A DNA stretch of 64,000 nt, from positions 20,703 to 84,702 of IMG/VR virus record IMGVR_UViG_3300050821_001592; one strand, given 5' to 3'. The stretch's first letter is position 1. Each line of letters opens with the position of its first letter. The DNA is from a virus. Both the position numbers and the translations under genes were made by a program. Below, piece after piece: positions 1 to 64,000 of this stretch. The notes under the pieces were generated by a model. It saw only the letters and a list, made by a program, of their open reading frames with translations, made no database searches and was not told the origin of the DNA.

Positions 1-298
1 CGTTTAACGACTGGAGTATGGCGGATAGCCCGCCGACCATAGAGACACTCTGGTCAACTAGCCCTGTTTGTAGAAGAGAAATCATCGTGTCTGAAGGATT
101 TCCTTGCGGGGCGAGGGCGAAAATATCAGACGGGTCCGCGATGGTGTACGGGGTCGATACAAAGACATATTCCATCGTGACGGATATGAGATTGACGTAT
201 GTCCCTGCGCCTGTCGGGGGTATGATGGTTATAGGCGTTTCTGTCAACGCGAGAAGTTCAGCGGAAGACAGTACGACGGTAGCAGATTGAATAGCCAT
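1..298 (-). CDS. Virion/tail-fibre-associated protein, partial (runs off window start)
   Basis: ATG at 298 after AGGAGA RBS; open to base 1 (MAIQSATVVLSSAELLALTETPITIIPPTGAGTYVNL...); resembles the C-terminal domain of 307-1224 (VDIPASAL...PVQIIPAQGAGTRINV). Not in the ORF track. Confidence 0.7.
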   Translation of the reverse strand, partial: MAIQSATVVLSSAELLALTETPITIIPPTGAGTYVNLISVTMEYVFVSTPYTIADPSDIFALAPQGNPSDTMISLLQTGLVDQSVSMVGGLSAILQSLN

Positions 299-306
299 GT
301 TTCTCC

Positions 307-1224
307 TTAGTGAATCGATTCGACCGTGTAGTACGAGATGACCCGTAGGGTGAGCGTCCCCGTGAGGCCCCGAGAGGTGCTAAGCATATACGGTTGATTG
401 TTGAATAGCGATACGGCCAACGGGGCCTCCCCCTCCGTTTCGGAAGTCTCGTTTGAAAACAAGCTGGATATTCTTTCTGCTGAGTTGAGCACGAGGACAG
501 CATCGACATTAAATTCTGGTGTGTTGTTCGCGAGAGCCTGCGGGGGTCCAAGATTGAATTTAACCCCGGTACCGTCAGGTGTTCCGGCGCTGCTTTGGAA
601 CACCATATTTACCACATTGATTCTTGTTCCCGCGCCCTGAGCGGGTATTATTTGAACAGGGACAGCTAGGGAGTTATTTAAAGCACTAGCCGGGATATCT
701 ACCTGAGCCCGTTGGAGTCCCACCGGAATAGGGATTGTACCTGTTACGACAAGTTGGATGAAGGTGTACTCCATATTAGGGATTGGGACACGCGACGAAG
801 AGCCAAGGACTGTTATCGTGTATCTTCCTGCGGGTACGGAACTATCCACCGTTATAGTGGCTAGACTGGTGGTAGTCACGAGAGACGGTGCAAACGTCAC
901 TGTTACCCCAACCGGGGTTCCAAAAACCCGTAGTGATTCACTATTAACCCCTAGGAGATTAGTCAAATCTATGGTCGTTGTACCCACCCCACCCGGAGAG
1001 ACTATTACGACACTAGGCACGGTTTGTAAAGAAAAAGAAACCTGATTCCCGAACATATTAGGGGTCGGCGACCCTGACACCGGATTCCCGTTTAGGGTGG
1101 AGTTGGATTGGGGTATTACGTTTCCAAAAGGCTCGGGCTGACCAATCAGATTTCCAAAATTGTGAGGCAGGGTCATGGGAGTTCCGTTACGAAAATCTCC
1201 AGACCTTACGAGTCCTTGAGGCAT
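307..1224 (-). CDS. Putative virion structural protein with Ig-like beta-rich domain
   Basis: AGGAG RBS; T/V/P/G-rich; Ig-like segment (GVTVTFAPS...ATITVDSSVPAGRYTITV); tail gene neighbourhood. Confidence 0.6.
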   Translation of the reverse strand: MPQGLVRSGDFRNGTPMTLPHNFGNLIGQPEPFGNVIPQSNSTLNGNPVSGSPTPNMFGNQVSFSLQTVPSVVIVSPGGVGTTTIDLTNLLGVNSESLRVFGTPVGVTVTFAPSLVTTTSLATITVDSSVPAGRYTITVLGSSSRVPIPNMEYTFIQLVVTGTIPIPVGLQRAQVDIPASALNNSLAVPVQIIPAQGAGTRINVVNMVFQSSAGTPDGTGVKFNLGPPQALANNTPEFNVDAVLVLNSAERISSLFSNETSETEGEAPLAVSLFNNQPYMLSTSRGLTGTLTLRVISYYTVESIH

Positions 1225-61720: not shown

Positions 61721-61948
61721 ATGAAGAACTTAAACGCAATGCGGCTCCTGAAGAATGCAGCGGTGCAGACGCCCCTTAACAGTCCCGAATGGAATACTCT
61801 GGTCCATGCGGCCATATTCGTTGAGAAGTCGCAAAGCGAGTTAGCGGCGAAACGTCGCAATGCGGCCCGTAGGGCTCGCCACGAGGCGTTGACCTCTCTC
61901 GGATTGAAGCGGGTCAAGGGGGCTCTGGGCGGGACATATTATGAATAG
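61721..61948 (+). CDS. Early basic protein
   Basis: C-terminal SLGLKRVKGALGGTYYE. Confidence 0.65.
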   Translation: MKNLNAMRLLKNAAVQTPLNSPEWNTLVHAAIFVEKSQSELAAKRRNAARRARHEALTSLGLKRVKGALGGTYYE

Positions 61949-62141
61949 CACGGAGCTATATACGTTAACGGATACGGAAAGCGGGTTTACGACTGCCCTC
62001 GAATTGACGCTCAGCTTGAGGCGAGTGGGGTTCAAGACGCGACTAGCGGAACGTAAATTTAACCGATTCGGAGTGGTGACCGTGGTTGCGACATATCCGA
62101 AGAGACCGAACAGGAAGGAACGCGGGGCTAGTCTTAATTGA
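61941..62141 (+). CDS. Early hypothetical protein
   Basis: Overlaps the upstream stop. Confidence 0.5.
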   Translation: MNSTELYTLTDTESGFTTALELTLSLRRVGFKTRLAERKFNRFGVVTVVATYPKRPNRKERGASLN

Positions 62142-62244
62142 TTGCCTCTGATACATCGTGGCCAAACGTGGACGCACGGCTCTGGATGAAGCGAAGGTTA
62201 ATCCCTTAGCAGGAGATGGCGGCGCTGTATCAGAGGCAGTCAAT
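62137..62244. repeat. 19-bp inverted repeat enclosing 70 nt; candidate small RNA
   Basis: ATTGATTGCCTCTGATACA (62137-62155) / TGTATCAGAGGCAGTCAAT (62226-62244), one G:U on the plus strand. Confidence 0.7.
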
Positions 62245-62258
62245 CAGGAAAATAACTC

Positions 62259-62287
62259 TTGACACAGGAGTGGTCATCCGGTAGGAT
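62259..62287 (+). promoter_or_regulatory. Sigma70 promoter of the AAA gene (leaderless)
   Basis: TTGACA-17-TAGGAT-6 nt-ATG. Confidence 0.75.
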
Positions 62288-62293
62288 ACTCAC

Positions 62294-63853
62294 ATGGCAA
62301 ACAAGACCTTCACCGAACAGTTTCTTGAGGCGCGGTTAGTCAGCACTCCGCAGGTTGTCATACGCACCCATGATGCTTTCGCTACTACAAAGGCGATTGC
62401 AAAGGCTTTCGATAAACGCGAGGACATGCCCTTTATTTCTTGGGACGCTATCAACGGGCTCAAGGGCTTGACTGACGCGGGCGTCACTGAAATCGGCGAT
62501 ATGCTGAAACCTACTGAGACGGCACCAGCGGAGACCGTGGACCTCTCAGTCGCACTAGGCGTACTCGCGTCAGCATCGAAGGATGTAATCGCTTTCATCC
62601 ACAATCCGCATCTCGTGTGGGATACAGACAAAAAAGTTCTTCAGGGTATCTTGAATCTCCGCGACGACTACAAGGCCAACGGTAACATGGTGGTGTTTCT
62701 CCTCGGCGTGGGCGATGAACTTCCGAGTGAAATCGGACAGGATGTCCTCGTGTTAGAAGTCCCATTGCCTACCCGCGAACAGCTTGCGTCAATCGTAAAA
62801 TCTATTTACGAATACGCGGGACAGGAGACGGCGTACAAAGCGTGCAAAAAAGGCCCCGATGCCGAAACCCTGCGACGTGCAACTGACGCGGGTATCGGAC
62901 TCCCGCAATTCCCCTTCGACCAATCGACCGCAATTTGCCTCAATAAAGTCACGGGCGTGCTCGATATAGACGCTCTGTGGACGCGTAAGCGAGAGATTGT
63001 TACGCAAAACCCCGGATTGACCTACCACGCGACGGTAGAAACCCTAGCGGACATGGCGGGCTGTTCTTCGTGGCTCGACTCCGCTCAATTGTTGATGAAT
63101 GGTCCGAAACAACCGACTGTTATCGTCCGTATGGACGAGATACAGCGGCAATTCGCGGGCAACGAGACGGATTCCTCCGGCACAAAAGGCAACCTCATGG
63201 GGGAATTCCTGAATTGGGTGAACGACCGGAAGGTCATCTGTACTCTCAACGTAGGCGTCTCAGGAACATCTAAATCATGGGCACCCTACTGTATTGGCGG
63301 ACAGGCGGGTAAGCCCGTAATTAATTATGACCTCGCGGCGATGGAACATGAGCACGTCGGCAAATCCGCCCGCCACATGCGGAACGCGAATCGCTGCCTC
63401 GATGCTATCGGAGACGGTAAAATCTGGCTCATTGCAACGGCGAATAAACTCGACGGTCTCCCGCCTGAGTTGATATCCCGGTTTCAGTTAGGCGGTATCT
63501 GGTTTTTTGATATGCCTACGGATGAGGAGAAGGCCGCTATCCTGAAGATTAAAGTAAAAGCATACGGGCTCGATGCGAATCAACCTATGCCCGCGATGAC
63601 CGGATGGACGGGGCGAGACATCGACAACTGCTGCAACAAAGCGAGCCTTTTCGGTACTACCCTACAGCGGGCGTCCAAATACATCGTACCGTTGCACGAG
63701 TCGCATCACGAGCAGATTGAGGGTATTCGCATGGCCGCGAGTGGTCGCTTCCTATCCGCTTCGACGGAGGGCATCTATCGATACTCGCCTTCGCCAATTA
63801 AGCACGAACCCGCATCGAAGGTCGTCGAGGGGCGAAAGTTCAGGACTGAGTAA
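62294..63853 (+). CDS. Ycf46-like AAA+ ATPase with rearranged motif order
   Basis: Degenerate first AAA domain (LP.E....LPTRE.L), then VRMDEI..F.G...SSG, GVSGTSKS, VG.S...MR, IATAN....LPPEL, FFD.P..EE. Confidence 0.8.
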   Translation: MANKTFTEQFLEARLVSTPQVVIRTHDAFATTKAIAKAFDKREDMPFISWDAINGLKGLTDAGVTEIGDMLKPTETAPAETVDLSVALGVLASASKDVIAFIHNPHLVWDTDKKVLQGILNLRDDYKANGNMVVFLLGVGDELPSEIGQDVLVLEVPLPTREQLASIVKSIYEYAGQETAYKACKKGPDAETLRRATDAGIGLPQFPFDQSTAICLNKVTGVLDIDALWTRKREIVTQNPGLTYHATVETLADMAGCSSWLDSAQLLMNGPKQPTVIVRMDEIQRQFAGNETDSSGTKGNLMGEFLNWVNDRKVICTLNVGVSGTSKSWAPYCIGGQAGKPVINYDLAAMEHEHVGKSARHMRNANRCLDAIGDGKIWLIATANKLDGLPPELISRFQLGGIWFFDMPTDEEKAAILKIKVKAYGLDANQPMPAMTGWTGRDIDNCCNKASLFGTTLQRASKYIVPLHESHHEQIEGIRMAASGRFLSASTEGIYRYSPSPIKHEPASKVVEGRKFRTE

Positions 63854-63904
63854 CAGGGCTGAGTAGCAGGAGTAACCGTCTAAAAAAAATTAGGGAAGGC
63901 TAGA

Positions 63905-64000
63905 ATGATTACTTTTCTGAAGGAAGATGAACAGCACCAGCATAACGGCGGCGGTTGGGTCGCTAACACCGCGACCGTAGAAGACACCGCATATATCGGA
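63905..64000 (+). CDS. Partial hexapeptide-repeat (left-handed beta-helix) protein
   Basis: HQHNGGGWVANTATVEDTAYIG; runs off the window end. Confidence 0.6.
   Translation, partial: MITFLKEDEQHQHNGGGWVANTATVEDTAYIG

What the first reader, a model, noticed from the sequence alone, without database searches (positions are those of the whole stretch)
63100..63480. AAA+ ATPase with Walker B placed before Walker A (internal segment swap)
Seen order: PTVIVRMDEIQRQFAG..DSSG...MGEFLNWVND (about 63110-63225), then LNVGVSGTSKS...YDLAAM....VGKSARHMR (63245 onward), then IWLIATAN...LPPEL. Known: Ycf46-type AAA domains run Walker A, pore loop (VGESE..MR), Walker B (..IDEI.K.F.G..DSG....G.FL.W), sensor 1 (ATAN). 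Here two internal blocks are exchanged in frame with the flanks in place, which is not a simple circular permutation. Inference: a rewired AAA+ topology expressed early from its own leaderless promoter; the GTSKS P-loop may alter activity.
Basis: partly seen in the sequence, partly recalled or inferred. Interest (0 to 1): 0.75.

Follow-up and report, generated by a model that had tools for sequence, protein, structure and literature searches.

The report
Phage AAA ATPase with swapped core
A soil phage gene encodes an AAA-type motor ATPase in which the piece carrying the Walker B motif is encoded ahead of the ATP-binding Walker A piece, a rewiring shared by hundreds of related phage proteins that appears to keep the usual fold and active site.

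Summary
Confirmed. The ORF at 62294..63853 (+, 519 aa) is a two-tier SpoVK/Ycf46/Vps4-type AAA protein. In its C-terminal ATPase core, the 40-residue Walker B/pore-loop-2/helix unit (residues 273-312) lies before the 63-residue Walker A/helix/strand/pore-loop-1/helix unit (313-375).

- **Block swap.** Profile-profile alignment to normal-order viral relatives tiles exactly but out of order: block C maps to 296-336, block B to 235-296, with the flanks collinear.
- **Family-wide.** All 387 family members tested have the swapped order, and 113 of 121 normal-order relatives have the usual one, with 8 lacking a hit. Misassembly and chance are therefore excluded.
- **Catalytic residues.** E282, N384 and R396 are invariant in 390 of 390 members; K327 in 389 of 390.
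- **Fold.** An AlphaFold model of the core (pLDDT 95.3) superposes on spastin, NVL and Vps4. Coevolution supports the normal strand neighbours. I could not read model coordinates.
- **Untested.** The leaderless promoter is plausible only. The Ser in the P-loop is a family-variable position.
- **Function.** The substrate is unknown.
- **In print.** Five literature searches found no description.
- **Earlier in this scan.** The scan has noted this family on other DNA: 23 notes in at least 23 genomes.

The parts
62259..62287 (+). Promoter-like site TTGACA-17 nt-TAGGAT; the ATG follows 6 nt after the second hexamer and there is no Shine-Dalgarno between them
   Evidence: It is the only such match in 61900-64000, where shuffles give 1.3 +/- 1.3. 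Function not shown.
62294..63853 (+). CDS of the 519-aa two-tier AAA protein (P0001), stop codon included
   Evidence: Full-length homologs begin at the same place.
62294..63013 (+). Residues 1-240: N-terminal AAA-like tier without Walker A or B, in normal strand order
   Evidence: hhalign to residues 9-202 of normal-order relatives, E 5.1e-25. The whole model aligns to Cdc48 D1-D2: Z 17.9, 401 residues, rmsd 4.2.
63014..63109 (+). Residues 241-272: linker and helix alpha0 that precede the ATPase core
   Evidence: hhalign to 205-235 of normal-order relatives, E 9.5e-7. DCA contacts of 257-268 with the P-loop and alpha1.
63110..63229 (+). Block C, residues 273-312: Walker B strand (D281 E282), DSSG pore-loop-2 region and helix alpha3, here placed first
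   Evidence: hhalign to 296-336 of normal-order relatives, E 9.5e-15. D281 is 383 D / 7 E and E282 is 390 of 390.
63230..63418 (+). Block B, residues 313-375: Walker A strand and P-loop (G321..K327 S328), alpha1, beta2, pore loop 1 (H354 V355 G356) and alpha2, here placed second
   Evidence: hhalign to 235-296 of normal-order relatives, E 1.1e-19. K327 is 389 of 390 and G356 is 388 of 390.
63419..63850 (+). Block D, residues 376-519: sensor-1 strand (N384), arginine-finger region (S395 R396), beta5 and helical lid (R441), collinear with normal relatives
   Evidence: hhalign to 340-456, E 1.2e-31. N384 and R396 are 390 of 390. PF00004 positions 100-124 match residues 375-398.

Best explanation
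The gene encodes a phage member of the SpoVK/Ycf46/Vps4-type classical AAA ATPases. It has two tiers: a catalytically dead AAA-like N-terminal tier and an active C-terminal tier.

In a large phage-borne lineage, the C-terminal core has been rewired. The beta3(Walker B)-pore loop 2-alpha3 unit is encoded in front of the beta1(Walker A)-alpha1-beta2-pore loop 1-alpha2 unit.

Shown:
- The block swap itself.
- Its presence in every family member examined.
- Strict conservation of the Walker A Lys/Ser, the Walker B Asp-Glu, the sensor-1 Asn and one arginine finger.

Inferred, but with three lines of support: the chain still folds into the normal AAA sheet (strand neighbours 2-3-4-1-5), so the ATP site is assembled as usual from pieces that arrive in a different order.

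Inferred from family knowledge only:
- It forms a ring and uses ATP to pull a protein substrate through pore loops.
- It acts early in infection.
- Small DUF2997/DUF1257 proteins, which lie next to the gene in relatives, are partners or adaptors.

The most economical origin is a tandem duplication of the B-C segment followed by loss of the first B and the last C. No intermediate was seen.
For: **Swap.** Out-of-order HMM hits on P0122. Block HMMs give order C<B<D in 149 of 149 representatives and 119 of 119 further members. All 268 of the 270 proteins P0001-P0121 and P0124-P0272 that passed the filters have C<B<D. Among 121 normal-order relatives, 113 are B<C<D and none is C<B<D. hhalign tiles the blocks with E 9.5e-15 and 1.1e-19.

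**Size of the family.** 6675 cluster representatives at E<=1e-3 and 1226 at E<=1e-30; the best 150 are all single-stretch and full length.

**Active site kept** (390 members): E282 390, N384 390, R396 390, K327 389, G321 389, G324 389, S/T328 389, G356 388, D281 383 D / 7 E.

**Fold.**
- AF2 of residues 241-519 on 150 rows: pLDDT 95.3, pTM 0.89. Element order is strand 276-280, helix 297-311, strand 315-321, helix 330-338, strand 342-345, helix 357-373, strand 377-383.
- VIA-align: spastin 6p07_A Z 16.1, rmsd 2.4, 195 aligned; NVL Z 15.8, 206 aligned.
- DCA on 387 sequences (Neff 275): 276-373 ranks 3rd of 32385 pairs. In the normal order these are chain neighbours at the alpha2/beta3 joint. 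Pairs 308-370 and 312-370 rank 4th and 5th.
- Strand pairs among the top 300: WB strand with sensor-1 strand 5 of 110; WA strand with sensor-1 strand 3 of 121 (314-377, 317-380 and 318-381, one register); WA strand with beta5 2 of 99.
- In total, 11 of 410 cells for expected neighbours against 3 of 576 for non-neighbours, Fisher p 0.0058.

**One lineage.** A tree built only from the collinear N and D parts has a single split, 268 swapped against 111 normal, with support 0.996.

**Partners in relatives.** DUF2997 is found in 5 of 5 related swapped-type phage records (1 over cut-off) and DUF1257 in 3 of 5. They lie 0.7-2.6 kb downstream on the same strand. DUF2997 is found in 5 of 5 normal-order records, all over cut-off.
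Against: - I could not read coordinates of either AlphaFold model, so the strand order in the model was not seen directly. AlphaFold may lean on its knowledge of AAA folds.
- DCA is modest. The beta2/WB-strand neighbourhood has only 1 of 80 cells in the top 300, and 3 cells of non-neighbour pairs also reach it.
- This protein departs from the consensus site. It has Ser326 where the P-loop has Gly, and Ser395 where most members have the first arginine, with Arg441 in the lid instead. No ATPase activity has been measured for any member.
- Pfam and NCBIfam see only fragments.
- This phage record has no DUF1257, DUF2997 or DUF3150 at E<=1.
- No neighbour gene is shared with relatives, apart from a 66-aa ORF.
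- The single-origin test used only one normal-order subfamily plus P0122.
- Substrate and role in infection are unknown.
Confidence: 0.8

Rival explanations
1. The swapped unit does not fold back into its own subunit. Instead the Walker B strand-helix unit inserts into the sheet of a neighbouring subunit (three-dimensional domain swapping), so the active site exists only in the oligomer.
For: The unit sits at the N-terminal edge of the core, after a linker and helix. The loop that follows it (residues 288-296) is the least confident part of the full-length model, with a block pLDDT of 58. Nothing I ran tests intra- against inter-subunit contacts, and DCA cannot tell them apart.
Against: The monomer model of the core is compact, with pLDDT 95.3 and no segment under 50. 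The connections are short: residues 312-315 and 373-377 join helix to strand directly.
Confidence: 0.07
2. The rewiring destroyed catalysis, and the protein is a structural or regulatory pseudo-ATPase.
For: In this protein the P-loop Gly before Lys is Ser, and the first arginine of the finger region is Ser. The N-terminal tier of the same protein is already a dead AAA-like domain.
Against: The Walker A Lys and Ser/Thr, the Walker B Asp-Glu, the sensor-1 Asn and Arg396 are kept in 383-390 of 390 members, down to about 32% identity. An arginine is present at either 395 or 441 in all the combinations listed. That pattern is what selection on a working nucleotide site would give.
Confidence: 0.08
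3. Artefact: a misassembled or chimeric contig, or a chance resemblance of motifs in a protein that is really collinear with AAA domains.
For: BLASTP gives one collinear alignment to P0122 (residues 110-494 to 102-506, 20% identity, E 5.7e-16). Read support on this contig is thin, at depth 2-4, and may come from the source sample.
Against: The same order appears in 387 proteins from many independent assemblies and sources, and in the isolate Tunturiibacter phage Tunturi_3 gp103. The block-wise hhalign E-values are 1e-15 to 1e-19 at out-of-order places. A contig of run X1 bridges the C|B border without any difference (63094-63294).
Confidence: 0.01

Closest known systems
Normal-order viral SpoVK/Ycf46/Vps4-family AAA ATPases (P0273 and relatives from IMG/VR contigs L010-L014, named so by JGI; PHROG phrog_8638; Streptococcus satellite phage Javan368 QBX09687.1 = P0122)
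   Same: Same length class (about 470-525 aa). Same dead N-terminal AAA-like tier (hhalign E 5.1e-25). Same lid and sensor-1/arginine region (E 1.2e-31). Very similar Walker B unit (DE[IF]EKQFAG..DSG) and a DUF2997 gene nearby.
   Different: They run Walker A, pore loop 1, Walker B, sensor 1, and match PF00004 and phrog_8638 in one stretch. This protein has blocks B and C exchanged and matches phrog_8638 in 3 stretches. Gly before the P-loop Lys is found in 118 of 121 of them against 117 of 390 here.
Tunturiibacter phage Tunturi_3 gp103 'ATPase' (XOB77284.1, PP885686.1)
   Same: 38% identical over 98% of the length, with the same swapped order. It is the only cultured-phage member in the phage collection searched.
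   Different: It has GVPGVSKS, a Glu-Ser pore loop and RR at the finger position. The paper's main text holds neither 'ATPase' nor 'AAA' (passages only).
Two-tier (type II) AAA unfoldases Cdc48/p97/VAT, NVL, Rix7
   Same: The predicted two stacked AAA-like tiers superpose: 8ua0_B Z 17.9, rmsd 4.2, 401 aligned, model 3..496. It has a classical-clade lid and pore loops.
   Different: There is no N-terminal substrate-binding domain. The first tier has no Walker motifs. The second tier has rewired connectivity. Sequence identity is 11-13%.
Circularly permuted GTPases (YlqF/YjeQ-type; recalled, not from a call)
   Same: A natural P-loop NTPase in which motif order along the chain is changed while the fold is kept.
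   Different: There the whole domain is cyclically permuted, so the termini move. Here the termini and flanks stay and only an internal segment is permuted, and it occurs in the ASCE/AAA+ division.

Membership tests
Classical AAA domain (Pfam PF00004) | Walker A Lys and Ser/Thr in a Gly-rich P-loop | tested here: met
   G321, G324, K327 and S328 are present. K327 is 389 of 390 and S/T328 is 389 of 390. Deviation: Ser326 replaces the Gly before Lys (Gly in 117 of 390).
Classical AAA domain (Pfam PF00004) | Walker B hhhhDE | tested here: met
   VIVRMDE. D281 is 383 D / 7 E and E282 is 390 of 390.
Classical AAA domain (Pfam PF00004) | Sensor-1 Asn and arginine finger(s) of the second region of homology | tested here: met
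   N384 and R396 are 390 of 390. The first finger position, 395, is Ser here (R 235 / S 140) and is paired with Arg441.
Classical AAA domain (Pfam PF00004) | Collinear order Walker A, pore loop 1, Walker B, sensor 1 | tested here: not met
   The order here is Walker B, Walker A, pore loop 1, sensor 1. Out-of-order HMM and hhalign matches. PF00004 matches only positions 100-124 (22.1 bits against a cut-off of 21.2).
Classical AAA domain (Pfam PF00004) | Alpha/beta core plus helical lid superposable on solved AAA modules | tested here: met
   Model only. Spastin Z 16.1, rmsd 2.4, 195 aligned; NVL, Rix7, Vps4 and FtsH Z 14.9-15.8. About 40-50 residues of the 245-residue span stay unaligned.
Phage/mobile-element Ycf46-like two-domain AAA (phrog_8638) | Homologous N-terminal tier and C-terminal lid | tested here: met
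   hhalign N E 5.1e-25 and D E 1.2e-31. phrog_8638 E 2e-30.
Phage/mobile-element Ycf46-like two-domain AAA (phrog_8638) | One collinear match to the family profile | tested here: not met
   3 stretches for this protein and 4 each for P0123 and P0200, against 1 each for the normal-order P0122 and P0273.
Phage/mobile-element Ycf46-like two-domain AAA (phrog_8638) | DUF2997 (and often DUF1257) gene within about 3 kb | tested here: inconclusive
   None at E<=1 in this 84.7-kb record. However, the record is linear and 89% complete, and it ends 147 bp after the stop codon. Present in 10 of 10 related records.
Type II AAA unfoldases (Cdc48/p97) | Two stacked AAA tiers | tested here: met
   Model only: Z 17.9, 401 aligned to D1-D2.
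Type II AAA unfoldases (Cdc48/p97) | N-terminal substrate/cofactor-binding domain before the first tier | tested here: not met
   The alignment starts at model residue 3 against chain residue 219, so no residues are left for such a domain.
Type II AAA unfoldases (Cdc48/p97) | Hexameric ring | not testable with these tools
   Not established here; see Tried and rejected.

The most novel reading that the evidence does not exclude
This lineage is the first natural AAA+/ASCE core with a non-terminal (internal) permutation, and the rewiring is not neutral. The Walker B strand and pore loop 2 now hang directly from the dead N-terminal tier, and the sensor-1 strand is fed straight from helix alpha2. 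The path that couples ATP hydrolysis to the pore loops and to the upper tier is therefore changed.

The relaxed P-loop glycine would then be a follow-on adaptation of a re-engineered motor, as would the arginine that moves between the finger position 395 and the lid position 441.
Probability: 0.25. Interest if true: 0.85.

Novelty: new variant of a known kind. Interest (0 to 1): 0.7.

Why it matters
The order Walker A, Walker B, sensor 1 is treated as a fixed signature of AAA+ and other ASCE ATPases, and domain models and annotation pipelines depend on it.

- **Protein evolution.** A large natural lineage that keeps every catalytic residue with two core blocks exchanged shows that this fold tolerates internal rewiring.
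- **A natural experiment.** It offers a way to study how chain connectivity shapes folding and allosteric coupling in ring motors.
- **Annotation.** It explains why these abundant soil-phage proteins are annotated only as fragments or as hypothetical proteins.
- **Phage biology.** It marks an unstudied early-region motor with small conserved companions (DUF2997, DUF1257) in relatives. The same companions sit beside the normal-order form.

Tried and rejected
- **BLASTP against P0122** gave one long collinear alignment at 20% identity. It hides the swap, so I went to block-wise HMMs and hhalign.
- **A regex for motif order** called 118 of 152 swapped, 33 incomplete and 1 normal (the control P0122). 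It was too strict, and block HMMs replaced it.
- **Foldseek on the core model** found AAA proteins (best E 8.2e-8) but with rmsd 8-19 A and TMq at most 0.59. It says nothing about connectivity.
- **Complex prediction** with three copies of residues 241-519 plus three ATP returned 'no answer' (score 0.00, mark 0.42). I draw nothing from it.
- **A first DCA** with 270 sequences gave the same pattern as the later one, but weaker.
- **Duplication intermediates.** No protein among the 389 swapped-type and 121 normal-order proteins searched has two hits (iE<1e-3) to block B or block C. I did not search the 'longer' length class.
- **Partner genes in this record.** DUF1257, DUF2997 and DUF3150 are absent at E<=1. 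HMMs built from the relatives' own partner ORFs found nothing better than E 3. Pfam on ten neighbouring ORFs gave only a YdcK beta-solenoid repeat.
- **Synteny**. No shared neighbour apart from a 66-aa ORF.
- **The scan of bacterial and archaeal genomes** found only 4 loci. One is a full-length relative (35% identity, on a Myxococcales MAG contig); I did not check its block order. No host can be named.
- **Sequencing runs**. Contigs only, at depth 2-4. The pre|C and B|D borders are not bridged by 31 letters on both sides. The RNA-library contigs show neither transcription nor a start site. X1 may be the source sample.
- **Literature.** Five searches found no description of a permuted AAA core or of this family: Ycf46+phage+AAA; Walker A/B+permutation+AAA+; DUF1257+DUF2997; circularly permuted+AAA+; Tunturiibacter phage.
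  - PMC10853773: passages only. Its 'circularly permuted' refers to methylases.
  - PMC11924767: passages only. No 'ATPase' or 'AAA' in the main text.
  - All other papers were seen only as search listings.
Full report
**What is there.** The window is the last 64 kb of an 84,702-bp linear virus record, which CheckV rates 89% complete. The ORF 62294..63853 (+) encodes 519 residues (P0001). Its stop codon lies 147 bp from the contig end.

- VIVRMDE, with D281 and E282 at 63134-63139.
- DSSG at residues 293-296.
- GVSGTSKS at residues 321-328 (63254-63277).
- HVG at residues 354-356.
- ATAN, with N384 at 63443-63445.
- R396 at 63479-63481.

Pfam sees only positions 100-124 of PF00004 (22.1 bits, cut-off 21.2). 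NCBIfam gives nothing below E 0.09. PHROGs gives phrog_8638, of unknown function, in three stretches.

**Is the order really exchanged?** The phage collection held two relatives.
- Tunturiibacter phage Tunturi_3 gp103 'ATPase' (P0123) is 38% identical over 98% of the length and has the same order.
- A Streptococcus satellite phage Javan368 protein (P0122, 525 aa) has the normal order: Walker A, Y-V-G pore loop, Walker B, ATAN. PF00004 covers it end to end.

An HMM of 38 family members (A1) matches P0122 in out-of-order pieces:

| Family HMM positions | P0122 residues | iE |
|---|---|---|
| 318-379 | 274-335 | 9e-10 |
| 277-311 | 332-368 | 2.4e-5 |
| 375-491 | 371-503 | 1.2e-16 |

Viral contigs L010-L014 and 120 proteins found with one of them supply a normal-order sister family of the same architecture. 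Some of these carry the JGI name 'SpoVK/Ycf46/Vps4 family AAA+-type ATPase'. hhalign of separate blocks of the swapped family (271 rows) against 115 of these proteins gives an exact tiling:

| Block (this protein) | Normal-order relatives | E-value |
|---|---|---|
| N, 1-240 | 9-202 | 5.1e-25 |
| pre, 241-272 | 205-235 | 9.5e-7 |
| C, 275-312 | 296-336 | 9.5e-15 |
| B, 313-374 | 235-296 | 1.1e-19 |
| D | 340-456 | 1.2e-31 |

The chain A-B-C-D of ordinary relatives is therefore A-C-B-D here.

**Is it a property of a family or of this contig?**
- The 90%-cluster search gave 181 hits, with 120 listed at 52-78% identity, nearly all over at least 85% of the length.
- The exhaustive search of 50%-cluster representatives gave 6675 hits at E<=1e-3 and 1226 at E<=1e-30. 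The best 150 are all one full-length stretch.
- A third search with distant members gave 1343 hits, with 120 listed.

Block HMMs give the following orders:
- C<B<D in 149 of 149 representatives.
- C<B<D in 119 of 119 of the last set.
- C<B<D in all 268 of the 270 proteins P0001-P0121 and P0124-P0272 that passed the filters. Two were dropped; the two fragments under 440 aa account for them.
- B<C<D in 113 of 121 normal-order proteins. The other 8 lack a hit, and none is C<B<D.

Misassembly is therefore excluded. In addition, contigs of a soil DNA run are identical to the window, and one (63094-63294) bridges the C|B border. That run may be the source sample, and its depth is only 2-4.

**Is the site kept?** In 390 aligned members:

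| Position | Count |
|---|---|
| E282 | 390 |
| N384 | 390 |
| R396 | 390 |
| K327 | 389 |
| G321 | 389 |
| G324 | 389 |
| S/T328 | 389 |
| G356 | 388 |
| D281 | 383 D / 7 E |

Position 326, the Gly before the P-loop Lys, is relaxed: Ser 137, Ala 126, Gly 117. It is Gly in 118 of 121 normal-order relatives.

The strongest coevolving pair of the whole core is 395-441. Members carry either Arg395 with Ala441 (222) or Ser395 with Arg441 (138, this protein among them). Both and neither are unseen among the 384 of 390 listed. An arginine has therefore moved between the finger position and the lid position. That pattern is what one expects of a nucleotide site under selection.

**Does the usual fold survive?**
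- AlphaFold on the full length (38 rows) gave pLDDT 85.8. On residues 241-519 (150 rows) it gave pLDDT 95.3 and pTM 0.89.
- The element order in the core model is strand 276-280, helix 297-311, strand 315-321, helix 330-338, strand 342-345, helix 357-373, strand 377-383, strand 401-405, then lid helices.
- The core model superposes on classical AAA modules: spastin Z 16.1, rmsd 2.4, 195 aligned; NVL Z 15.8; Rix7, Vps4 and FtsH Z 14.9-15.4.
- The whole model superposes on Cdc48 D1-D2: Z 17.9, 401 aligned. The N-terminal 240 residues are thus a dead AAA-like tier.
- About 40-50 residues of the 245-residue core span stay unaligned. That is the size of one block, as expected if a sequential aligner meets a swapped chain, but I had no control for this.
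- I could not read coordinates.

As an independent test I ran mean-field DCA on 387 sequences (Neff 275).
- Pair 276-373 ranks 3rd of 32385. In the normal order these are neighbours at the alpha2/beta3 joint; here they are 97 residues apart.
- Pairs 308-370, 312-370 and 300-359 rank 4th to 6th (helix alpha3 against alpha2).
- Residues 298 and 300, just before and at the start of alpha3, couple with pore loop 1 (348-351).
- Strand pairs in the top 300: WB strand with sensor-1 strand 5 of 110; WA strand with sensor-1 strand 3 of 121, in one register (314-377, 317-380, 318-381); WA strand with beta5 2 of 99; WB strand with beta2 1 of 80.
- Non-neighbour pairs: beta4-beta5 2 of 99, beta2-beta5 1 of 72, and the other four pairs 0.
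- Totals are 11 of 410 against 3 of 576, Fisher p 0.0058.

This fits the canonical sheet order 2-3-4-1-5, which is established knowledge of AAA+ folds and recalled rather than taken from a call. The beta2 edge is weakly supported.

**Origin.** A tree made only from the collinear N and D parts puts all 268 swapped proteins on one side of a single branch and all 111 normal ones on the other, with support 0.996. This fits one origin. The normal-order sample is one subfamily plus P0122, however, so the test is weak. No protein has two copies of block B or C. Duplication of B-C followed by two deletions is the simplest route, but it is inference.

**Context and function.** The gene lies in the plus-strand block of small genes, opposite the large minus-strand structural genes. 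A TTGACA-17-TAGGAT match ends 6 nt before the ATG, and no Shine-Dalgarno lies between. This fits the leaderless reading, but it is a single consensus match where shuffles give 1.3.

Contigs of a soil RNA library are identical to 62363-62592 and 62635-62838. That is only a hint of expression.

- In five related swapped-type phage records, DUF2997 is found in 5 of 5 (1 over cut-off) and DUF1257 in 3 of 5. They lie 0.7-2.6 kb downstream on the same strand.
- In five normal-order records, DUF2997 is found in 5 of 5 over cut-off, about 0.8 kb upstream in the two records I mapped. DUF1257 is found in 0 of 5.
- In this record none is found. The record ends 147 bp after the gene and may lack the relevant stretch.

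The most likely mechanism is a ring-forming, pore-loop-bearing protein remodeller that acts early in infection with small adaptor proteins. This rests on family knowledge, not on a test here.

**Novelty.** PHROGs files the family only as fragments of the normal-order phrog_8638. Five literature searches found no description. This scan has met the family before on other DNA: 23 notes in at least 23 genomes. My tests agree with those notes.

Noticed in passing
window 63476-63478 (S395) and 63614-63616 (R441): An arginine relocates within the family. 222 members have Arg395 with Ala441. 138 members, including this protein, have Ser395 with Arg441. Both and neither are unseen among the 384 of 390 listed. 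It is the top DCA pair of the core. The Ser395/Arg441 type goes with Ser326 in the P-loop (117 of 140).
   Followed up: partly
window 63269-63271 (S326): The Gly before the P-loop Lys is relaxed in the swapped lineage (Ser 137 / Ala 126 / Gly 117 of 390). It is Gly in 118 of 121 normal-order relatives.
   Followed up: partly
window 63905-64000 and L015:111-473 (start of the same contig): ORFs at both contig ends look like beta-solenoid repeat proteins. The one at the contig start hits the YdcK repeat PF18836 (E 2.7e-12). They do not join in frame. The assembly may have broken inside a repeat gene, or about 10% of the genome is missing here.
   Followed up: partly
window 61941-62141: The 66-aa ORF just upstream of the ATPase gene has homologs 2.3-2.6 kb downstream of the ATPase gene in two related phages: L004:7902-8099 (E 1.9e-10) and L005:6043-6303 (E 9e-9). 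In L005 it lies right after the DUF2997 gene. It has no Pfam family.
   Followed up: partly
L016-L024 (related phage records), L010-L014: Small DUF2997 genes, and in some records DUF1257 genes, accompany both the swapped and the normal-order ATPase genes: downstream of the swapped gene, and upstream of the normal-order one in the two records I mapped. None is found in this record.
   Followed up: partly
window 62363-62592 and 62635-62838: Contigs of a soil metatranscriptome library (coded X2, a different study from the DNA holder) are identical to the N-terminal part of the gene. DNA carry-over is not excluded.
   Followed up: partly
window 63353-63355 (H354): The pore-loop-1 position before Val-Gly is His here (Leu 220, His 107, Ile 21, Phe 18, Tyr 16 of 390). 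The normal-order P0122 has Tyr.
   Followed up: no
L015:481-717: A 79-aa ORF near the contig start gives a weak, sub-threshold match to ribosome modulation factor (PF04957, E 0.0092, 16.5 bits against a cut-off of 27.9).
   Followed up: no
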